NCBI GenBank assembly: GCA_001804285.1 | Contig: MHFR01000060.1 | Span: 34,442-98,441 of the forward strand | DNA from: Candidatus Danuiimicrobium aquiferis | GTDB taxonomy: Bacteria; Omnitrophota; Omnitrophia; Omnitrophales; Danuiimicrobiaceae | Reading direction: 5' to 3' | DNA: 64,000 nucleotides | Shown here: one piece after another, positions 8,995-54,426 of the stretch | Numbering within the stretch: the first letter of the stretch is position 1 | How the letters are laid out: each line of letters starts with the position of its first letter | Program-made: the position numbers and the translations under genes | The notes under the pieces: model-generated | Databases searched by the model: none | Seen by the model: only the letters and a program-made list of their open reading frames with translations | What the model was told of the DNA's origin: nothing

Positions 8995-9069
8995 TGGAGG
9001 CGCGGGGCGGAATCGAACCGCCGTATACAGGTTTTGCAGACCCGTGCATTACCACTTTGCTACCGCGCC
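8995..9069 (-). tRNA. tRNA-Cys (anticodon GCA), CCA encoded
   Basis: Reverse complement: GGCGCGGTAGCAAAGTGGTAATGCACGGGTCTGCAAAACCTGTATACGGCGGTTCGATTCCGCCCCGCGCCTCCA. Cloverleaf with anticodon loop CTGCAAA. Confidence 0.9.
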
Positions 9070-13005: not shown

Positions 13006-13140
13006 AAATAAAATAGCTTCAAGTCCTTTTATGGTAACGGGTTGCGATTATTAAGATTTTGCGTGGTTTAGTATTATATGGTTGAACTTTACCTGTGTCA
13101 AGAGAATGAATTTTTCGCAGATTTCGAAAAAATTCCTCTT

Positions 13141-23603: not shown

Positions 23604-24120
23604 CCACATGATGCTGACCTGTAAGCCGAGTTCTGTCCCCGCCACTTACGTGGCGGGTAATGATCATCTATCTAGGGCGCTGCTTGCGCAAACGCCTCAT
23701 GCGACCAACCCAAAACTTGGGAACGGGCCGTTCCCCCCGGCATCCGCAAAATCAGTGATTCTGCGCCGCCGAGTTCGTTTTCTATTCGGTCTTTCTCCAA
23801 GCGGGGTTTACCATGCGCCCTCCGTCGCCTTCGGGCCGGTGGTCTCTTAAACCGCCGTCACTCCCCATCATTAAATGAGAAATGACGACTGCACTCACTT
23901 TCTATTGATTACTCAATAAGAGTGACTGCCGCCGTTTCACCTTAACCCCCGATTGATGGGTTTGACACCATCAACAAAAGGCTGTTTATTTTCTGTGGCA
24001 CTTTCCATCTTTCACGGCTTTGGCCATGAAAGTCTCTGTGTTACAGAGCGCTCTTGCCCTGTGGAGCTCGGACTTTCCTCCTCCACGAATGGAAGCGATC
24101 ACCCGGTCAACATCATGTGG
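23604..24120 (-). ncRNA. rnpB: RNase P RNA (bacterial type A) with an enlarged internal helix (about 515 nt)
   Basis: Reverse complement contains GGAGGAGGAAAGTCCGAGCTCCACAGGGCA (P4/CR-I), GGTTAAGGTGAAACGGCGG, GGTAAACCCCGCTTGGAGAAAGACCGAATAG, and 3' CTAGATAGATGATCATTACCCGCCACG...ACAGAACTCGGCTTACAGGTCAGCATCATGTGG. P1 pairing is CACATGATGTTGACC/GGTCAGCATCATGTG. Confidence 0.9.
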
Positions 24121-33161: not shown

Positions 33162-33367
33162 AAAAAGGTTAGATGCAGTTTAATATTAAACTAAATTTTG
33201 GGCTCTCCGGTACAAACTGTTACCCATGTGTCCGGTACGGACCATTTGGGTAGTCTCGGGGCGGCCATGACTCTCATTTAAATATATTTTCTTTTATTCA
33301 TCGGAAGTCATGACTGTCCATAGGCTTTCATTGGAAAACAATATTAAACTATTTATTAAGGTAGTTT

Positions 33368-33440
33368 CGGGGCGGTAGGATTTGAACCTACGACCTCACG
33401 GTCCCGAACCGTGCGCGATACCAAACTTCGCTACGCCCCG
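33368..33440 (-). tRNA. tRNA-Pro (anticodon CGG), no encoded CCA; acceptor stem extended by 8 bp of complementary 5'/3' flank
   Basis: Reverse complement: GGGGCGTAGCGAAGTTTGGTATCGCGCACGGTTCGGGACCGTGAGGTCGTAGGTTCAAATCCTACCGCCCCGA. Anticodon loop TTCGGGA. Confidence 0.9.
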
Positions 33441-33699
33441 AAACTACATTAAGAAGAAAACAAAGCCATGCATCAATCAAAGTTTCGGGCAGTGCTTGAG
33501 CGACCTCTGCTAATTTCAATCAATGCTCAAGTGCGCCCCGAAACTACATTTCAAATAATATACAATCCGGGCACCTGCCGCTCATGCACCGCATAACGTC
33601 CTTTAACATTTTTCACAGCTAAAAGCCAACAGCTGACCGCTAAAGATTACGTATTATATTGTTTTTTAACAGAATTAGAAGAAAAGATTTCAGACGATT

Positions 33700-35113: not shown

Positions 35114-36106
35114 ATGATAGCCCAAGGACAAAGGAAAGACAACCCGAAACAGCCGGTAAAAGCACTCTCCATAGGGTTCGTCATGGATCCGATGGAACAT
35201 ATTGATATTCAATATGATAGTTCGGTTTCGCTGATGATGGAGGCTGAAAAACGCGGCCACCGGATCTATTATTTCGAACCTCGGGATATTTACACTCAGA
35301 ATCATGAACTTCTGGGATGCGCGCGAAAAATTTCAATTCCGGCCCGAAAAACGGGCTTCCGGGTCCTTTCCACAGAACGGGTTTATCTAAAAAATTTGGA
35401 TGTTCTGTTCATTCGAAAAGATCCTCCGTTCGACTTATCTTACCTGTATCTCATGCAAATCCTGACCCTCATTGAAAAAGACGTTTTTGTCATTAATTCC
35501 GCACACGGAATCGAGCGGGCCAATGAAAAACTTTATATCCTTGAATTTCCCCGGTGGATTCCACCGACCACCGTCACCAATGATCCTTTGCGGATCGAAG
35601 AATTTCAAAAAAAAATAAAGTCCGATATCATTATAAAACCGCTTGATCAAAAAGGAGGTGCAGGAATTAAACTCCTTCCGTTCCGTTTGTCGAACAGCCG
35701 CCAAGCTTTGAACCGAATGACCCGGCACGGAACAAAATGGGTCATGGTTCAAAAATTCATTAAGGCGAGCCGCACAAAAGGCGATAAACGAATTTTACTT
35801 TTAAACGGAAATGTACTCGGGCAATTCCGCAGAATTCCGGTCCGTGGTGAATTCCGCGCTAATTTATCCCTGGGAGGAATGGAAGCGAAAGCAACTTTAA
35901 CCAACCGCGAACGGAAAATGGTTCGCGCAATTCGGCCCAAGCTGATTCGAGACGGGCTTTATTTCGTGGGGATTGATATTGTTGACGGTTATTTAATTGA
36001 AATTAATGTGACCAGTCCGGCCGGGCTTACCGTGCTTGAGGCACTCGACGGAAAGCGGCTTGAGCCGAAAGTGATTGATTTTGCTGAATCCCGGGTTTTG
36101 CATTAG
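35114..36106 (+). CDS. gshB: Glutathione synthetase (prokaryotic ATP-grasp type)
   Basis: Aligns along the E. coli GshB sequence: 'SIGFVMDPMEHIDIQYDSSVSLMMEAEKRGH', 'RKDPPFD', 'IIKPLDQKGGAGI', 'GDKRILLLNG', 'EINVTSP'. The stop TAG lies inside repeat B2. Confidence 0.85.
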   Translation: MIAQGQRKDNPKQPVKALSIGFVMDPMEHIDIQYDSSVSLMMEAEKRGHRIYYFEPRDIYTQNHELLGCARKISIPARKTGFRVLSTERVYLKNLDVLFIRKDPPFDLSYLYLMQILTLIEKDVFVINSAHGIERANEKLYILEFPRWIPPTTVTNDPLRIEEFQKKIKSDIIIKPLDQKGGAGIKLLPFRLSNSRQALNRMTRHGTKWVMVQKFIKASRTKGDKRILLLNGNVLGQFRRIPVRGEFRANLSLGGMEAKATLTNRERKMVRAIRPKLIRDGLYFVGIDIVDGYLIEINVTSPAGLTVLEALDGKRLEPKVIDFAESRVLH

Positions 36107-36308
36107 CCCGGATTTCGCATCTTTAATAAGAAATTCCGCTCATAAGAGCTGCGGTGCAAAGATGGTTTGTATCTTTGCGACGCAGGGCTTATCTTTTGCG
36201 CCCTTGTTAAATCAGGGCGCAAAACTTTGGGCCACCTGATTGCGCCCAAAGCGACTTTCTCGTCGATTCACGAAATCGATGAGAAAGTCGGGTTAGCCCG
36301 GATTTCTC
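36104..36308. repeat. Family B MITE-like element, full copy B2 (about 205 bp; five consecutive hairpin modules; termini TAGCCCGGATTTC...GAGAAAGTCGGGTTA)
   Basis: Sits between convergent gshB and ftsI. It provides the gshB stop codon, and the last ~13 codons plus stop of ftsI ('GEIRANPTFSSIS*'). Confidence 0.85.
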
Positions 36309-39385: not shown

Positions 39386-39733
39386 TTAAGCGTGCTTAAA
39401 ACTCTGCACACCTTCCTCCTCGTTTGAATACGTCTCAATCATGTCATCGATCCCCAAGTAATGCAGCATTTCCTGAACTTTCGGCTGCAAATTAACCAAC
39501 CGAATGTCGCCCCTGAGAGACCGGACTTTTTGAATCCGCTCAACGAGAATGCTGATCCCTGCAACGTCAATCCAACGCGCGCGCTTAAGATCTAAAAGAA
39601 AATAGCGATGATTTTGATTCACCAACCGGCTTAACCGATTTTTAAGATGAACCATCTGCGTAGCGTTGAGATTTCCTCCGCAACGGACAACATCCACCGG
39701 ATTTTTTCCGTTTCCGTTCAATCGATACCCCAT
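39386..39733 (-). CDS. STAS-domain protein (anti-sigma-factor antagonist, SpoIIAA-like)
   Basis: 115 aa. 'YFLLDLKRARWIDVAGISILVERIQKVRSLRGDIRLVNLQPKVQEMLHYLGID' STAS fold pattern. Confidence 0.65.
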   Translation of the reverse strand: MGYRLNGNGKNPVDVVRCGGNLNATQMVHLKNRLSRLVNQNHRYFLLDLKRARWIDVAGISILVERIQKVRSLRGDIRLVNLQPKVQEMLHYLGIDDMIETYSNEEEGVQSFKHA

Positions 39734-40238: not shown

Positions 40239-40415
40239 TACGTCACGAAGTATACCGAATTGTGGAACTCCTTGTCAAGAAATAAGATGGAGAAAACTCA
40301 AAACATACAAGACACAAAATATGGTAAATAAACGAGCCGCCAACACAATATAATGTGGCTTATTTTAAAAGAGGGATAGTTCCTTAGAATAAAAAATGGG
40401 ATGCTGCTGAAACTT

Positions 40416-40609
40416 TAGCCCGGATTTCTCATCGCTAATGAGAAATTCCGCTCGTAAGAGCTGCGGTGCAAAGAGGTTATTCATCTTTGCGACACAGGGC
40501 TTATCTTTTGCGCCCTGATTTAACAAGGGCGCAAAACTTTGGGTGCAACTTATTGCGCCCAAAGCGACCTTCTCCATGATTCAAAAAATCGATGAGAAGG
40601 TCGGGTTAG
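40416..40609. repeat. Family B MITE-like element, full copy B3 (about 194 bp)
   Basis: TAGCCCGGATTTCTCATCGCTAATGAGAAATTCCG...GATGAGAAGGTCGGGTTA, collinear with B2. Generates the spurious ORF 40365..40577. Confidence 0.85.
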
Positions 40610-40622
40610 GACTTTTTTTGAA

Positions 40623-41324
40623 TTATTCGCAGTATAAAATGCGGGAGCAATTTTCGCAGAAAACGACTTTTTCCTTCATTTTGATTTCATTGATGATTTG
40701 CGGACGGATTGTCATTTGGCATTCATTACAAACTTCACCTGTCACTTCAACAAGCGCAACTCCTCTTTTCTTCACAACAATTCTATCGTAGACAGAAGCA
40801 ATTTCCGGATCAACCTGCTTGATTTTTTCATTTCGCTGTTTTGTAAGGACTTCGCTTTGACCTTCAATTGCTTTGGCCTTTTCTTCAAACGTTTTAACCT
40901 TTTGATGTTGCTCAATTTCTGTTGTCTGAAATTTCTTTTTTTGTTCCTCTAATTTTTTCTGAACAGCCTGAACGTCATCCATAAATTGGATAATTTGTTC
41001 TTCGAGCAAGGAATTATCGGCCTTTAAGGAAGCAATTTCATCCTGCAGCGACTTATATTCTTTATTGGTCTTTACCTGGCTGAGTTGCGCATCATATTTC
41101 CTGACATTTTCTTCTTTGCCGGCAAGTTCAACTTCTTTCCCTTTTTGTTTAAGCTGAAGCTTTTTCAACTCATCCTGAAGATTCGTCAAAACATTTTTCT
41201 GTTCAACAATAAAACAGTTAATTGCTTCGATTTGCTCGGGAATAGTATTCTTTTCTTCTTCAAGCGTATAGATCTGCTTATCCCATTCCTGGATTTCTTT
41301 TAAGATTTTCATATCTGGCATCAT
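40623..41324 (-). CDS. Coiled-coil protein with C-terminal C4 zinc-ribbon (COG1579 / zf-RING_7 family)
   Basis: Long heptad-rich N-terminus. C-terminus 'CNECQMTIRPQ...VFCENCSRILY' is a CxxC...CxxC ribbon. Confidence 0.65.
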   Translation of the reverse strand: MMPDMKILKEIQEWDKQIYTLEEEKNTIPEQIEAINCFIVEQKNVLTNLQDELKKLQLKQKGKEVELAGKEENVRKYDAQLSQVKTNKEYKSLQDEIASLKADNSLLEEQIIQFMDDVQAVQKKLEEQKKKFQTTEIEQHQKVKTFEEKAKAIEGQSEVLTKQRNEKIKQVDPEIASVYDRIVVKKRGVALVEVTGEVCNECQMTIRPQIINEIKMKEKVVFCENCSRILYCE

Positions 41325-41432: not shown

Positions 41433-42038
41433 TTATACAGCCTTCTCAATTTTGGATTCATTTAAAATTGCCCGCCGCTTGCGAAGTTCCATCCCCAAGC
41501 GGGCAAAAGCAATCAGCTCAGGAGTTGAAAGATCCGATTCCCGGATACCGGATTCTGTTTTGGAATTAATCGGCCGCGGATAAAGGGCGGCTGAAAAGCC
41601 CGCATTTGCTTCCCTCTCTTCTTTCACTCGTCGAATGAAAACCGCATTTTCACCTTCTGAGCGAATAAAAGAAAACTCGTGAAGGCTCACCCTGATTAAA
41701 CCAAATGACATCCGGGATAATAAATGAGAGGAAAATCCGTTCGCAAAAACACATAATGCAATATCTTGGATATTCGCATCATTCAATTCTTTGCGTTTCC
41801 CTTCCAATCGTGCCGCACTATTTAAAAACCATTCGAAGGACTCTTCCTCTAACTCTTGCGAATGAATCTGTATTTCCACCAAAGTATGCTCCACCAAAAT
41901 AAACTGGCAAATCGCTCGCTCTCCCTTGGGATGAGAAAGGAATCGTGCAGCCGGAAACATCTTCTGAATGATGGCCGGAAGAATATTAACCAGTGATTCA
42001 CGCGACAATTCGTCGTAAACGGGTTCGTAAATTTTCAT
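41433..42038 (-). CDS. Hypothetical protein (last gene of the ParA-CBM48 operon)
   Basis: 201 aa, no recognisable motif. 4-nt overlap with the upstream gene. Confidence 0.45.
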   Translation of the reverse strand: MKIYEPVYDELSRESLVNILPAIIQKMFPAARFLSHPKGERAICQFILVEHTLVEIQIHSQELEEESFEWFLNSAARLEGKRKELNDANIQDIALCVFANGFSSHLLSRMSFGLIRVSLHEFSFIRSEGENAVFIRRVKEEREANAGFSAALYPRPINSKTESGIRESDLSTPELIAFARLGMELRKRRAILNESKIEKAV

Positions 42039-42904
42039 GAAATTAAATGCAGCTCCTCACACAGTTCAATTTTGGCTGATGAATTTAATATCATAGATTC
42101 CGGCTGCATCAGAATTTCAGGATTCAAGCGATACCGGTCATCTTCTCCCCAACCCATCAGATTTAAATCACAGCCAATGTATTGTGATACAATTTGGCAA
42201 AATTGTTCATAAACAAACTCGCACAAAGATTCGGCACCGGCCCCTTTTACCACCATCATAAAACGCAAGTTTTTTTTATGCGAAGCATGTAATCGCATCG
42301 CCTGATAAGCTTTAAGGACTCCCTCTAGATTAGGCGGAACAACCAAGATAATACAATCTAAAACATCGAGGATTTCCATTCCGAACCGGCAATCAGCCAA
42401 TGTTAAATAAGAAGAGTCAAACAAAACCAGATTAGACTGCGTAAGAGATCCGTTCAAACCCCTCTTAATTGGTTTTAAATCGATGATATCACCAAATTTG
42501 ACGGCAGGAATATAGGTAAACTTCACCGACCGGTCAAGTTGTTGAAATTGAACTAAATCATCCGAAACGATTTGTTCCCATCTGGGCAGCGGCAAAAAGG
42601 AAGCAAATATTTCATACCGTTCGTGGTTCGGAGCAACGGAAACAAAATACGTTTCCTGAAAAGATGTGCTGATCGATTCGAGCAACTTCATTTCCTCCAG
42701 AATCGTTAATTCTTCTTCCACAGATAAGAGAGTCGCGCAAACAACACCCCTGTGAATTTCTGCATCATGATAGACTTCGTTGTGGTGCTCAAATTCATGA
42801 GGAGGCGCAATCGACACAATCCGATTCGCATACCCTTTCCCAGGCATCTCAAAAAGCGGCGATAAATCAGCAAGTCCCTGTTTCAGCTTCTTTTCAACCT
42901 TCAT
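42035..42904 (-). CDS. MinD/ParA-like protein lacking a Walker A motif (degenerate pseudo-ATPase partner); start taken at 'MKVEKKLKQG'
   Basis: The C-terminal half 'DCIILVVPPNLEGVLKAYQAMRLHASHKKNLRFMMVVKGAGAESL...LMGWGEDD' follows the MinD/FlhG fold pattern. No GKGGxGK[ST] P-loop. Confidence 0.5.
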   Translation of the reverse strand: MKVEKKLKQGLADLSPLFEMPGKGYANRIVSIAPPHEFEHHNEVYHDAEIHRGVVCATLLSVEEELTILEEMKLLESISTSFQETYFVSVAPNHERYEIFASFLPLPRWEQIVSDDLVQFQQLDRSVKFTYIPAVKFGDIIDLKPIKRGLNGSLTQSNLVLFDSSYLTLADCRFGMEILDVLDCIILVVPPNLEGVLKAYQAMRLHASHKKNLRFMMVVKGAGAESLCEFVYEQFCQIVSQYIGCDLNLMGWGEDDRYRLNPEILMQPESMILNSSAKIELCEELHLIS

Positions 42905-44198
42905 GTAAGTTACTTTCAATCTCCACCATAATAAGCGAATCAACCCCACCATACTGATTCGCGCTGTTGTACCCGTTGGCAGGATCTGTTTTCCATTCGT
43001 CATCAACCAAAAGTTTATACCTGTGCAACCCTTTGCCGATCGGAATGATTTTCCGCCACAATCCTTTCTCCGCATCTACAAGGTGGAGCGGTTCTGCTAC
43101 CCATCGGTTGAAATCCCCCGCAATCATGACGGAGCGAACTGCCTGATTTAAATAAGAGAATAAAAAACCACCTAAAACGGCGCGCGGTTTTAATTCTTCG
43201 GGATCCATCGCGGGCACTTGAATTTGTTCTATTTGAATAGTGGCAATCGTCGACGCGGGATGAGTCTCAACCGCGGCTTGCGTTTGAACCGTAGGGGACT
43301 GAGTAGAATCGATATGAATGGCCTCTTGTTTATCGTTTCCCGAAGTCACAGAATTTTCCGTTTCGTCTTGATGGCTCTTTCCATCAGAAACGCTTGCCCC
43401 ATCCACCTTTGGCGAAACTTTCGAACCGCCACTTGCCCAAATTAATCCGCGTTCGATCACTTCGATAGCCAGCCCCATGTAATTTCGGAAACCACTCGAT
43501 TCCCGGTCAAAAGCAACAATACTTTGCCCGGCCGCAGCAGCTTCTTTTAATCTGATATTTTCATCAATGATATTAATAAAGATCTGATCGTGAAAATATT
43601 TCCGAACTTCTTCTTTGATTTCCCGTCCGAGCCGGCTCCGGTCTTCCCATCGGGTTAAGAGCGCATGAATCCTGAGTTCTTTGCCAAATTCTTTTTTAAA
43701 CGAATCAATGGTTTCAAAAATTTTTGCAAGTCCATGAAGTGAAAAAAAGGACGGTTCAATCGGAATAATCACCTCTTCAGCGGCATAAAGCGCATTGAAT
43801 GTCAAAAATCCAAGATTTGGCGGGCAATCAATAATAACATATTCGTACCGGTCTGAAATGGCGTCCAACTGGCGTGCCAAGCAACTGTGCGGAACAGTTT
43901 CGCAAACAAATTCACGTTCAACACGGCCTAACTTGATCGTTGAGGGAATCATATCCAAGTGATCATTAACAAAAACACCTAAGTCAGCAGCGCTGATTTC
44001 CTGGCTCTGGAAGAGATCATACGACGTATAAGGAAGAAATTCGGCTTTAATGCCAAGCCCGCAGGCACAATGTCCTTGAGGATCTAAATCCATTAACAAA
44101 ACTTTTTTACGAAGGAAAGCTAAGCTTGCGGATAAATTGATAGCGGTAGTCGTTTTTCCACAACCCCCTTTTTGATTTGCAATTGCAACAATTCGCAC
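42894..44198 (-). CDS. ParA/Soj-family deviant Walker-A ATPase fused to a C-terminal AMPK-beta / CBM48-like glycogen-binding domain
   Basis: N-terminus 'IVAIANQKGGCGKTTTAINLSASLA...DLDPQGH...IIDCPPNLG' is a canonical ParA. After a low-complexity linker, the C-terminus 'VLGGF..S.L...VRSVMIAGDFNRWVAEPLHLVDAEKGLWRKIIPIGKGLHRYKLLVDDEWKTDPAN' aligns to the AMPK beta-subunit GBD (SGSFNNW...HQYKFFVDGQWTHDP). Confidence 0.7.
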   Translation of the reverse strand: MRIVAIANQKGGCGKTTTAINLSASLAFLRKKVLLMDLDPQGHCACGLGIKAEFLPYTSYDLFQSQEISAADLGVFVNDHLDMIPSTIKLGRVEREFVCETVPHSCLARQLDAISDRYEYVIIDCPPNLGFLTFNALYAAEEVIIPIEPSFFSLHGLAKIFETIDSFKKEFGKELRIHALLTRWEDRSRLGREIKEEVRKYFHDQIFINIIDENIRLKEAAAAGQSIVAFDRESSGFRNYMGLAIEVIERGLIWASGGSKVSPKVDGASVSDGKSHQDETENSVTSGNDKQEAIHIDSTQSPTVQTQAAVETHPASTIATIQIEQIQVPAMDPEELKPRAVLGGFLFSYLNQAVRSVMIAGDFNRWVAEPLHLVDAEKGLWRKIIPIGKGLHRYKLLVDDEWKTDPANGYNSANQYGGVDSLIMVEIESNLHEG

Positions 44199-44468: not shown

Positions 44469-44560
44469 TGGTTTAGCTCGGATTTCTCATTGCTAATCCG
44501 GTTTTCTCATCGTTTTTTTCAATCGATGATAAGGGCGCGTGTTAGATGAGAAACTATCTA
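44469..44560. repeat. Family B element, degenerate partial copy B4
   Basis: TTAGCTCGGATTTCTCATTGCTAATCCGGTTTTCTCATCG...GATGAGAAACT. TIR-like modules only. Confidence 0.55.
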
Positions 44561-54100: not shown

Positions 54101-54426
54101 CTAACCCGACTTTCTCATCGATTTTATGAATCGACGAGAAAGTCGCTTTGGGCGCAATCAGTTGCGTCCGTGGCTTCCCCCCGGGCAAGCCCGGGGCACC
54201 TTTCAAAATCTGGCCTCGCTTGGAATTTTCTCTTTCCATGCTCGGCACGCCCTTCGGGCGCCATTCACCCCCGGGCAAGCCCGGGGAGCTCAAAGCGGCG
54301 TAAAGTTTTGCGCCCTTATTAAATCAGAGCGCAAAAGATAAGCCCTGCGGCGCAAAGACGCAAACAGCTTTGCACCGCAGCTCTTACGAGCGGAATTTCT
54401 TATTAACAATAAGAAATCCGGGCTAA
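54101..54426. repeat. Family B MITE-like element, composite copy B6 (about 326 bp, reverse orientation, with an extra ~140-bp insert carrying two CCCCGGGCAAGCCCGGGG hairpins)
   Basis: CTAACCCGACTTTCTCATCGATTTTATGAATCGACGAGAAAGTCG...GCGGAATTTCTTATTAACAATAAGAAATCCGGGCTAA matches the reverse complement of B2 end to end. Sits between the uvrD 3' end and the M48 peptidase start. Confidence 0.85.

What the first reader, a model, noticed from the sequence alone, without database searches (positions are those of the whole stretch)
42035..42904. Walker-A-less MinD/FlhG-like paralog immediately downstream of the ParA-CBM48 gene
The C-terminal half follows the MinD/FlhG pattern (D..ILVVPPNLEGVLKAYQAM...RFMMVV...LMGW.ED) but there is no P-loop. 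A catalytically dead ParA-like partner encoded in cis suggests a heterodimeric ATPase/pseudo-ATPase pair, or an adaptor that regulates the ParA-CBM48 ATPase. This is an unusual arrangement among ParA systems, which normally use ParB/MinE-type activators.
Basis: inference. Interest (0 to 1): 0.6.

Follow-up and report, generated by a model that had tools for sequence, protein, structure and literature searches.

The report
Dead MinD-like partner of a ParA ATPase
The gene encodes a real, conserved protein with a FlhG/MinD ATPase fold that has lost its ATP-binding loop but has a highly conserved ParB-like peptide at its N-terminus, so it most likely acts as the activator and adaptor of the neighbouring glycogen-module ParA ATPase rather than as an enzyme.

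Summary
Window 42035-42904 (-) encodes a 289-aa protein, and orthologue alignments confirm the start. It overlaps the ParA-CBM48 stop by 11 nt and the next gene's start by 4 nt. Single-sequence Pfam and NCBIfam searches find nothing. A 44-sequence family profile hits FlhG (PDB 4rz2, E 1.9e-9). An AlphaFold model (pLDDT 86) matches FlhG, FleN and MinD by Foldseek (E 6e-9). More distant syntenic relatives match FlhG over the whole domain (E 2e-22).

None of 72 family members has a Walker A at the P-loop position (here SVEEELT), and the switch I aspartates are gone. 'MPGKGYANRIV' lies in a disordered linker and is not a relic P-loop.

[quoted passage not shown] The same peptide heads non-MinD proteins encoded after ParA-CBM48 in Desulfobacterales.

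My reading is that this is a new kind of ParA-activating partner: a ParB-like peptide on a pseudo-ATPase body, within a conserved three-gene module. Its function is inferred, not shown, and its cargo is unknown. Glycogen or the division machinery are candidates.

The parts
42035..42904 (-). Target gene, 289 aa plus stop. It encodes an N-terminal peptide, a disordered linker and a P-loop-less FlhG/MinD-fold domain.
   Evidence: ORF. Start fixed by the family alignment. 69 homologues in an exhaustive HMMER search. AF2 pLDDT 86.
42851..42904 (-). N-terminal peptide MKVEKKLKQGLADLSPLF (residues 1-18), the most conserved segment of the family. Proposed ParA-binding and ParA-activating motif.
   Evidence: Translation. 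Column conservation: L7 64/72, R9 64/72 (Q in this window), G10 64/72, L11 70/72, D/E13 71/72, S15 64/72, F18 68/72. Short helix 12-18 inside an otherwise disordered 1-50. Regex L.[RK]GL..[LIVM] gives 38 hits in 716k residues of six-frame ORFs, 30 of them at the N-terminus of the gene right after ParA-CBM48.
42749..42850 (-). Variable, low-confidence linker (residues 19-52).
   Evidence: pLDDT 49-68. Gapped and unconserved columns.
42038..42748 (-). Pseudo-ATPase domain (residues 53-289) with a MinD/FlhG (SIMIBI) fold.
   Evidence: Foldseek: FlhG 4rz2 E 6.2e-9, then FleN, MinD, CooC1. Profile against PDB: FlhG E 1.9e-9. Link through A5.
42704..42724 (-). Position equivalent to the Walker A / P-loop (residues 61-67, SVEEELT). 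No glycine or lysine; erased.
   Evidence: Translation. Model strand 54-61 followed by helix 68-81. 0 of 72 family members have GK[ST] here. A5 relatives show intermediate states: GEKIQGKT in L025 and DKGIAERA in L043.
42419..42421 (-). Asp162, the retained Walker-B-position aspartate (LVLFD).
   Evidence: D in 60/72 and E in 7/72. Aligned to FlhG YLIFDMGAG.
42894..44198 (-). ParA-CBM48 gene (434 aa), the proposed cognate ATPase.
   Evidence: Pfam AAA_31 E 3.6e-50, AMPK1_CBM E 2.6e-9. Best PDB relative is M. xanthus ParA 8RAY, E 1.2e-52. Catalytic K10, K15, D37, D39 and D124 are invariant in 26 homologues.
42909..43169 (-). CBM48 / AMPK-beta-type carbohydrate-binding module of the ParA protein.
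   Evidence: Aligns to AMPK beta1/beta2 CBM (1z0m, 2f15; E 5e-6) with GDFNRW and HRYKLLVDDEW matched. W366, K395 and W402 are invariant in the family.
41433..42038 (-). Third gene of the module (201 aa, no Pfam hit). Its start overlaps the target's stop by 4 nt.
   Evidence: Conserved position. Family alignment A6. The distant member in L020 weakly resembles NucS_C (E 0.0023, below threshold).
41481..41534 (-). Conserved C-terminal motif of the third gene (DLSTPELIAFARLGMELR). In some genomes the motif is instead fused to the C-terminus of the target homologue.
   Evidence: Translation. E174 invariant. Fusions in P0139/L093, P0185/L091 and L050, where the separate third gene is absent.
40623..41324 (-). 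CdsZ/CT398-like coiled-coil zinc-ribbon gene, a conserved downstream neighbour in Omnitrophota. Its membership in the module is uncertain.
   Evidence: Pfam CT398_CC and Zn_ribbon_9. NCBIfam CdsZ below cutoff. Synteny.

Best explanation
The protein is the partner (ATPase-activating protein and adaptor) of the upstream ParA-CBM48 ATPase. It is not an ATPase itself. It has three parts.

1. **A basic/hydrophobic N-terminal peptide.** Residues 1-18, family consensus KKLKRGLxDLSxLF, at the end of a disordered arm. [quoted passage not shown] It would stimulate or tune ATP hydrolysis there, as the N-terminal motif of ParB does.
2. **A flexible linker** of about 35 residues.
3. **A FlhG/MinD-derived domain** whose P-loop and switch I have been erased. 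It can no longer bind ATP or form an ATP-sandwich dimer. I propose that it serves as the scaffold that connects ParA to something else. The best candidate is the product of the third gene, whose conserved C-terminal helix is fused to this domain in some genomes.

**Shown here:** fold, loss of motifs, conservation of the peptide, strict gene linkage, and an intact Soj/ParA-type ATPase next door.

**Inferred:** that the peptide contacts the ParA ATPase domain and activates it; what the dead domain binds; and the cargo (glycogen through CBM48, or a division-related structure, given the position just upstream of mraZ in Omnitrophota).
For: **The fold is there and the catalytic motifs are gone**
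- establish both points.

**The peptide is the most conserved element**
- It sits on a disordered arm containing a short helix.
- This matches the description of ParB's peptide as folding into a short helix on ParA (PMC12462528).

**Motif geometry**
- M. xanthus ParB uses L11, R13, L15, L18 and I19.
- The family here has L7, R9, L11 and L14.
- Relatives in other phyla read K-L-G-R-G-L-x-x-I-S-x-L-F.

**The peptide is modular**
- It also heads a 187-aa non-MinD protein right after ParA-CBM48 in Desulfobacterales.
- It also heads a lysine-rich DUF4912 protein in the same locus as a module in L020.
- In L032 the partner follows a ParA that lacks the CBM48 domain. This ties the peptide to the ATPase domain rather than to the CBM.

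**Gene linkage**
- The target's start overlaps the ParA stop by 11 nt, and its stop overlaps the next gene's start by 4 nt.
- Where the upstream gene was readable, every family member looked up sits directly after a ParA-CBM48 gene or a CBM48-containing fragment of one.
- About 34 of 80 GTDB ParA-CBM48 loci have a family member immediately downstream.

**The neighbour looks like an active, ParB-type-regulated ParA**
- Its closest solved relative is M. xanthus ParA 8RAY (E 1e-52), followed by Soj.
- Its catalytic residues are invariant.
- Three of the six ParB-pocket positions tested in that paper (L150, L152, L155) correspond to conserved hydrophobic L129, F131 and F134.
- The non-specific DNA-binding R238 corresponds to R216.

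**General precedent**
- Diverse ParA/MinD activators work through short, positively charged N-terminal extensions (PMC7993993; PMC11407121).
Against: - No interaction or activity was tested. No multimer prediction was possible with these tools.
- The similarity of the peptide to ParB N-termini rests on motif spacing. A profile of the peptide against PDB sequences did not retrieve any ParB.
- In this window's protein the central Arg is Gln (KLKQGL), as in 3 of 72 members. In M. xanthus ParB that Arg is needed for ATPase stimulation but not for binding. This species' protein may therefore bind without activating, or use K8 instead.
- Two of the six pocket positions differ (V116 to R95, L187 to S166), and a third (L192 to F171) is not conserved across the family.
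- Many ParA-CBM48 loci, mostly Phycisphaerae and a second Omnitrophota clade, have no such partner downstream.
- The reason why Asp162, Asp183, Tyr200 and Gly251 stay conserved in a dead domain is unexplained.
- The AF2 model of a natural fusion gave only moderate confidence for the third-gene motif (pLDDT 66-72). Its docking on the domain is therefore not established.
Confidence: 0.6

Rival explanations
1. Heterodimer model. The dead MinD-like domain pairs face to face with one ParA-CBM48 ATPase domain. This would give an asymmetric ATPase/pseudo-ATPase dimer with a single active site.
For: - Both proteins share the SIMIBI fold.
- The genes are translationally coupled.
- The Walker-B-position Asp162 and Asp183 are retained. 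These positions lie near the dimer interface in MinD-type proteins (from general knowledge of MinD).
Against: - The domain descends from the FlhG/MinD branch, not from the neighbour ParA (hhalign E 0.27 against E 1e-18 to A5). Co-evolved pairing is therefore not the simplest history.
- All elements that build the nucleotide sandwich (signature Lys, P-loop, switch I) are erased.
- The same N-peptide occurs on bodies that are not MinD-like. This shows the body is exchangeable while the peptide is constant.
- This model does not explain why the peptide is the most conserved part.
Confidence: 0.15
2. The N-terminal peptide targets something other than the ParA ATPase domain, for example the CBM48 module, a divisome protein or the membrane. 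On this view the pseudo-ATPase is an independent FlhG/FleN-like regulator or scaffold, and its linkage to ParA-CBM48 reflects a shared pathway rather than direct activation.
For: - In Omnitrophota the module lies immediately upstream of mraZ-STAS-rsmH-ftsL-ftsI and next to a CdsZ/FlgZ-like zinc-ribbon gene.
- FleN and FlhG act on partners other than ParA (PDB entries).
- No statistical match of the peptide to ParB was found.
Against: - The partner persists next to a ParA without CBM48 in L032.
- There is no C-terminal amphipathic helix. The protein ends at the helix that A5 aligns to FlhG 256-266, before the remaining C-terminal ~30 residues of the 295-aa FlhG chain. Its C-terminus is acidic.
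- The dcw neighbourhood is specific to Omnitrophota, whereas the ParA-partner pairing spans several phyla.
Confidence: 0.2
3. A decaying, functionless paralogue or a gene-calling artefact.
For: - Single-sequence searches of Pfam, NCBIfam and the word-indexed database found nothing but the protein itself.
Against: - There are 69 homologues at E below 1e-3, down to about 20% identity. They share invariant or near-invariant positions and give a confident AF2 fold.
- Position and overlaps are conserved in many genomes.
Confidence: 0.02

Closest known systems
FlhG (YlxH) / FleN, the MinD-type ATPases that control flagellar number (PDB 4rz2, 5j1j)
   Same: - Closest relatives by sequence profile and by structure.
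- Shared stretch xxAY...(F/Y)ER(F/L)...FL...LG.
- Same overall architecture: a regulatory N-terminal peptide on a flexible arm followed by a MinD-fold domain. FlhG's N-terminus activates the FlhF GTPase (from general knowledge).
   Different: - No deviant Walker A and no switch I aspartates.
- No C-terminal membrane-targeting helix.
- The N-terminal peptide has a different sequence: KLKRGLxDLSxLF, not the DQAxxLR type (the latter from memory).
- No flagellar gene context.
- The partner is a ParA, not FlhF.
ParB/Spo0J N-terminal ParA-binding motif
   Same: - Position at the extreme N-terminus of a disordered arm.
- Basic residues followed by L-x-[R/K]-G-L-x-x-[L/I] spacing (PMC12462528).
- Encoded directly after a Soj/ParA-type ATPase.
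   Different: - No ParB CTPase, HTH or dimerisation domains; the body is a dead MinD fold.
- The motif continues as D-[LIV]-S-x-L-F rather than A-L-[LI].
- No parS or DNA-binding function is evident.
- The similarity is not statistically demonstrable with a short profile.
Non-ParB ATPase-activating partners: PomX, McdB, TlpT, ParG, MinE
   Same: [quoted passage not shown]
- Encoded next to the ATPase.
   Different: [quoted passage not shown]
- Here the activator is built from a pseudo-enzyme of the same superfamily as its target.
MinD
   Same: - SIMIBI fold.
- An aspartate is conserved at the Walker B position.
- An aspartate is conserved in the LLDhxIlVv strand. This is equivalent to the Asp of MinD's 'ADeaIittnPE' (from memory).
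   Different: - No ATP-binding loop.
- No membrane-targeting sequence.
- No MinC or MinE in the neighbourhood.

Membership tests
ParA/MinD (deviant Walker A) ATPases | Deviant Walker A KGGxxGK[ST] between strand 1 and helix 1 | tested here: not met
   The loop at that position is SVEEELT. 0 of 72 family members have GK[ST] or KGG there.
ParA/MinD (deviant Walker A) ATPases | Switch I / A' aspartates after strand 2 (DxD) | tested here: not met
   This window has VSVAPNHERY. The family columns are S-[LVI]-x-P with no conserved Asp.
ParA/MinD (deviant Walker A) ATPases | Walker B hhhhD | tested here: met
   LVLFD162. D in 60/72 and E in 7/72. Aligned to FlhG YLIFD.
ParA/MinD (deviant Walker A) ATPases | SIMIBI-class alpha/beta fold | tested here: met
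   AF2 model pLDDT 86. Foldseek top 50 hits are all P-loop NTPases, nearly all MinD/ParA/NifH/Get3-type, with FlhG at E 6e-9.
ParA/MinD (deviant Walker A) ATPases | ATP binding, ATP-dependent dimerisation and hydrolysis | not testable with these tools
   Predicted absent from the loss of motifs. Needs nucleotide-binding and ATPase assays.
FlhG/FleN subfamily | Best sequence and structure similarity is to FlhG/FleN among solved proteins | tested here: met
   FlhG E 2.4e-22, FleN 5e-20, MinD 6e-14 for the A5 relatives.
FlhG/FleN subfamily | C-terminal amphipathic membrane-targeting helix | tested here: not met
   The protein ends with the acidic helix AKIELCEELHLIS. The alignment of relatives to FlhG stops at FlhG residue 266 of 295.
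FlhG/FleN subfamily | Flagellar gene neighbourhood (flhF, fliA) | tested here: not met
   The neighbours are CNNM genes, ParA-CBM48, an unknown gene, a CdsZ-like gene and mraZ-ftsI.
ATPase-activating partner proteins of ParA/MinD ATPases (functional class) | Encoded adjacent to, and co-occurring with, a cognate ParA/MinD ATPase | tested here: met
ATPase-activating partner proteins of ParA/MinD ATPases (functional class) | Conserved, positively charged N-terminal peptide on a flexible extension | tested here: met
   K2, K5, K6 and K8 here. In the family, basic residues at positions 5 and 6 in 62-67 of 72 and R9 in 64 of 72. The arm is disordered.
ATPase-activating partner proteins of ParA/MinD ATPases (functional class) | Stimulates the ATPase of its partner | not testable with these tools
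   Needs biochemistry. Caveat: the central Arg is Gln in this species.
ParB/Spo0J | ParB N-terminal CTPase domain, HTH and C-terminal dimerisation domain | tested here: not met
   No Pfam or NCBIfam ParB hit. The fold is MinD-like.

The most novel reading that the evidence does not exclude
The three-gene module (ParA with its own glycogen-binding CBM48, then a ParB-like peptide on a dead FlhG/MinD domain, then a small protein with a conserved C-terminal helix) is an undescribed ParA-type positioning system. In it the activator is a pseudo-enzyme of the same superfamily as the motor. The cargo or matrix would be alpha-glucan (glycogen) granules, or in Omnitrophota a division-site structure. The family also records stepwise pseudo-enzyme evolution: Walker A intact in an Eisenbacteria relative, half-decayed in others, and erased in Omnitrophota.
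Probability: 0.3. Interest if true: 0.8.

Novelty: new variant of a known kind. Interest (0 to 1): 0.62.

Why it matters
ParA/MinD ATPases organise chromosomes, plasmids, carboxysomes, chemoreceptor arrays and division sites. Each new ATPase and partner pair has revealed a new cargo and a new way of coupling to it.

- **The motor is unusual.** It carries a carbohydrate-binding module in which three positions matching the AMPK-beta CBM sugar-binding residues (identified from memory) are invariant.
- **The partner is unusual.** It is a catalytically dead member of the motor's own superfamily and has a ParB-like activating peptide.
- **The family is unannotated.** It has no Pfam or NCBIfam model, and I found no paper describing it in the library searched. 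It is nevertheless conserved across Omnitrophota and present in several other phyla.
- **It is testable.** If the proposed mechanism holds, it offers a case of a pseudo-ATPase reused as an adaptor. It may also be a first handle on how uncultured PVC-related bacteria position glycogen or their division machinery.

Tried and rejected
**Searches that found nothing**
- Single-sequence Pfam, NCBIfam and PADLOC scans of the target gave no hit. Scanning all 72 members against Pfam gave only noise.
- The word-indexed homologue search found only the protein itself. With the family profile it found only 8 proteins. The exhaustive HMMER search was needed.
- A profile of the N-terminal peptide against PDB sequences retrieved no ParB, only designed coiled coils. 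The ParB resemblance therefore remains a motif-level argument.
- A profile of the third-gene family against PDB found nothing. Only one distant member weakly resembles NucS_C.
- Literature searches for ParA with CBM48, AMPK1_CBM, glycogen or DUF4912 found nothing relevant.

**Comparisons that were negative or inconclusive**
- hhalign of the family against its neighbour ParA-CBM48 family was not significant. The target is therefore not a recent duplicate of its neighbour.
- AF2 of the natural fusion P0139 was used as a proxy for a complex between the target and the third-gene motif. The motif is helical but only at pLDDT 66-72 and no contacts are reported, so this is inconclusive.

- The search for related loci with the family alignment failed because no stretch was conserved enough.

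**Ideas rejected**
- An alternative upstream start restoring a Walker A was rejected.
- A defence-system reading was rejected. There are no PADLOC hits for the window proteins, and the housekeeping synteny is fixed.
Full report
**What is at the coordinates.** Window 42035-42904 on the minus strand is an ORF of 289 codons. Its ATG (42904) lies 11 nt inside the end of the ParA-CBM48 gene (42894-44198). Its stop overlaps the ATG of the next gene (41433-42038) by 4 nt. The window matches a contig of 'Omnitrophica bacterium RIFCSPLOWO2_12_FULL_44_17'. Identical copies occur in several groundwater metagenomes. Public gene callers chose an earlier start (305 aa), and a longer in-frame ORF starts at 43075. 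The upstream extension lies in the CBM48 coding region and contains no Walker A.

**Is it MinD/FlhG-like?** Single-sequence Pfam and NCBIfam scans find nothing. The word-indexed database returns only the protein itself. An exhaustive HMMER search of 1.8 billion cluster representatives found 69 homologues of 230-316 aa plus a few fragments.
- A profile of 44 members hits the crystal-structure sequence of Geobacillus FlhG (4rz2) at E 1.9e-9 over residues 157-253.
- An AlphaFold2 model built on 72 sequences is confident (mean pLDDT 86, pTM 0.80). Residues 1-50 are disordered apart from a short helix at 12-18, and residues 53-289 form a compact alpha/beta domain.
- Foldseek against the PDB ranks FlhG first (E 6e-9), followed by CooC1, FleN, MinD and ParA-family proteins.
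- The genes immediately downstream of ParA-CBM48 in other lineages (alignment A5) bridge the gap. A5 matches FlhG over the whole domain (E 2.4e-22), FleN (5e-20) and MinD (6e-14). A5 aligns to the target family with hhalign probability 99.1% and E 1e-18.
- One of these relatives (L043) passes Pfam's thresholds for ParA, AAA_31 and CbiA.

The relationship to the FlhG/MinD branch is therefore established. It is not a recent copy of the neighbouring ParA, since hhalign between the two families gives E 0.27.

**Is the P-loop really missing?** Yes.
- In the model, strand 54-61 (VVCATLLS) is followed by the loop SVEEELT and helix 68-81.
- Across 72 members the loop columns are dominated by S, P, D, E and F. 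No GK[ST] or KGG motif occurs there. The few GK[ST] strings in the family lie elsewhere.
- The switch I aspartates are also gone.
- Retained are the Walker-B-position Asp162 (60/72, plus 7 Glu), Asp183 (68/72), Tyr200 (70/72) and Gly251 (72/72).
- The distant relatives show intermediate states at the P-loop position: GEKIQGKT (a formally intact GxxxxGKT) in an Eisenbacteria genome, DKGIAERA in L043, and unrecognisable sequences elsewhere. This looks like stepwise decay of an ancestral ATPase.

The most conserved part of the protein is its N-terminus. The counts of 72 are K/R5 (62), K/R6 (67), L7 (64), K8 (55), R9 (64), G10 (64), L11 (70), D/E13 (71), L/I/V14 (71), S15 (64) and F18 (68).
- In other phyla the gene after ParA-CBM48 begins K-(K/R)-L-G-R-G-L-x-x-(I/V)-S-x-(L/I)-F-L-S.
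- The pattern L.[RK]GL..[LIVM] occurs 38 times in 716,000 residues of six-frame ORFs from the 90 loci held at the time. Thirty of those hits are at the N-terminus of the gene directly after ParA-CBM48.
[quoted passage not shown] The central R13, a Lys in about half of ParBs, is needed for ATPase stimulation but not for binding (PMC12462528).
- Short, positively charged N-terminal extensions are the common device of otherwise unrelated ParA/MinD activators such as ParB, MinE, ParG, PomX, McdB and TlpT (PMC7993993; PMC11407121).

**The peptide is modular and goes with the ATPase domain.**
- In Desulfobacterales the gene after ParA-CBM48 is a 182-187-aa protein with the same N-terminus (MAKKSLGRGLDDISDIFLS) and no MinD-like domain.
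- In locus L020 a second protein carries the peptide ahead of a lysine-rich repeat region and a DUF4912 domain (E 5e-24).
- In L032 the ParA lacks the CBM48 module, yet the peptide-bearing pseudo-MinD partner is still present.

The constant pairing is therefore between the peptide and the ParA ATPase domain. The body behind the peptide can be exchanged.

**The neighbour ATPase.**
- ParA-CBM48 has an intact deviant Walker A (QKGGCGKT). K10, K15, D37, D39 and D124 are invariant in 26 homologues.
- Its closest solved relative is M. xanthus ParA (8RAY, E 1.2e-52), then Thermus and Helicobacter Soj.
- Using D60A and V116 to fix the numbering, I mapped the residues from PMC12462528. Pocket residues L150, L152 and L155 correspond to conserved hydrophobic L129, F131 and F134. 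V116 and L187 correspond to R95 and S166 and are not conserved. L192 corresponds to F171, which is hydrophobic here but not across the family. R238, which is needed for non-specific DNA binding, corresponds to R216 (Arg in 15 of 26).
- The C-terminal module aligns to the AMPK beta carbohydrate-binding module (1z0m, 2f15; E about 5e-6). The tryptophans and lysine that I recall as sugar-contacting (W100, K126, W133 of beta1, from memory) correspond to W366, K395 and W402, which are invariant.

**The module and its surroundings.**
- In Omnitrophota the order is two CNNM/CorC genes, ParA-CBM48, the target, a gene of about 200 aa, a CdsZ/CT398-like zinc-ribbon gene, then mraZ, a STAS gene, rsmH, ftsL and ftsI. 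This order is conserved in contigs whose ParA is only 40-58% identical.
- The ParA-partner pair, usually with the third gene, also occurs outside that neighbourhood in other phyla.
- The third gene has no Pfam hit. Its family shares a C-terminal motif [RK]-L-[ST]-x-x-E-[LI]-x-x-[FL]-x-x-L, with the Glu invariant.
- In at least three genomes (P0139/L093, P0185/L091, L050) the separate third gene is absent and this motif is fused to the C-terminus of the target homologue. That suggests the motif works together with the dead domain.
- An AF2 model of one such fusion predicts the motif as a helix at pLDDT 66-72 after a disordered linker. This does not show docking.

**Most likely mechanism (confidence about 0.6).** The protein is the activating partner and adaptor of ParA-CBM48. 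Its N-terminal peptide engages the ATP-bound ParA dimer next to the Walker B loop, as ParB's does. The dead FlhG/MinD domain, unable to bind nucleotide or form a sandwich dimer, acts as a scaffold that recruits the third protein or another cargo.
- **Shown:** fold, motif loss, peptide conservation and modularity, linkage, and an intact Soj-type neighbour.
- **Inferred:** peptide-ParA contact, activation, what the domain binds, and the cargo.
- **Caveat for this species:** the central Arg is Gln (KLKQGL), so activation may be weak or may depend on K8.

**Rivals.**
- The heterodimer model (0.15) lacks support, for the reasons given above.
- A model in which the peptide targets something other than ParA (0.2) cannot be excluded without binding data.
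- A functionless relic is excluded by conservation.

**Novelty.** I found no Pfam or NCBIfam model and no paper that describes this family, ParA-CBM48 or the module. The class of thing, a ParA partner with an N-terminal activating peptide, is known. A partner whose body is a pseudo-ATPase of the ParA/MinD superfamily, attached to a ParA carrying a glycogen-binding module, is to my knowledge not described. I rate it a new variant of a known kind. It has a plausible but unproven link to glycogen or division-site positioning.

Noticed in passing
window 36103-36306 (+), 40415-40612 (+), about 54299-54426 (-); partial ends near 13139, 44473-44560 and 48656: A repeated intergenic element of about 195 nt. 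It contains several internal hairpins and a terminal inverted repeat (TTAGCCCGGATTTC ... GAAAGTCGGGTTA). One copy lies between mraZ and the CdsZ-like gene, and a partial copy lies upstream of ParA-CBM48. It is not in Rfam at gathering threshold. It produces two spurious ORFs that share the peptide LIAPKATFS.I.EIDEKVGL.
   Followed up: partly
window 41433-42038 (-); motif at 41481-41534: The third gene of the module has no known domain, but its family shares a C-terminal motif [RK]L[ST]xxE[LI]xx[FL]xxL. In three genomes (L093, L091, L050) the separate gene is absent and the motif is fused to the C-terminus of the target homologue. Distant members (L020, L084, L052) carry a NucS/PD-(D/E)XK-like N-terminal segment (NucS_C E 0.0023; PADLOC candidate PDC-S18 E 5e-9).
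   Followed up: partly
L020 7734-9104 (+): A second protein carries the same peptide (KKLGKGLEDISTLFLS). The peptide is followed by a lysine/alanine-rich repeat region and a DUF4912 domain (E 5e-24). It lies 2.6 kb downstream of a ParA-CBM48 module, after a Cu-oxidase_4 (YfiH/PgeF-like) gene.
   Followed up: partly
L039 5082-5645 (+); also L023, L072, L082: In Desulfobacterales the gene after ParA-CBM48 is a 182-187-aa protein. It has the ParB-like N-terminus MAKKSLGRGLDDISDIFLS, a cysteine-containing middle region and no MinD-like domain. This is an alternative body for the same peptide.
   Followed up: partly
L025 3770-4693 (+) (Eisenbacteria MAG): This partner homologue keeps a formally intact Walker A (GEKIQGKT), an Asp in switch I (NAD) and a Walker B Asp. 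It may be a still-active ancestor-like form of the family.
   Followed up: no
L032 4001-4966 (+): This ParA of the same clade has no CBM48 module, only a low-complexity tail of about 70 aa. It is still followed by a peptide-bearing pseudo-MinD partner.
   Followed up: partly
window 39386-39733 (-): A STAS-domain (anti-sigma-antagonist-like) gene sits between mraZ and rsmH at the head of the dcw cluster. It is conserved there in all Omnitrophota contigs examined. This is an unusual insertion in an otherwise canonical mraZ-rsmH-ftsL-ftsI order.
   Followed up: no
L067, L071, L075, L078, L079, L085, L086, L089 (downstream of ParA-CBM48): A second clade of Omnitrophota and Planctomycetales ParA-CBM48 genes (about 30% identical) is followed by a small membrane protein (...GKI[FY]A[IL]LAYLSI.CIIPLI.KK.N.FV...) and not by the peptide-bearing partner. 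Their activator, if any, is elsewhere.
   Followed up: no
window 23606-24114 (-), 8995-9069 (-), 33366-33441 (-): RNase P RNA (class A, 224.6 bits), tRNA-Cys(GCA) and tRNA-Pro(CGG). These are ordinary housekeeping RNAs.
   Followed up: yes
window 42905-42952 (-): Public gene calls (P0001, 305 aa) start the target 16 codons too early, inside the CBM48 coding region. The family alignment supports the ATG at 42904.
   Followed up: yes
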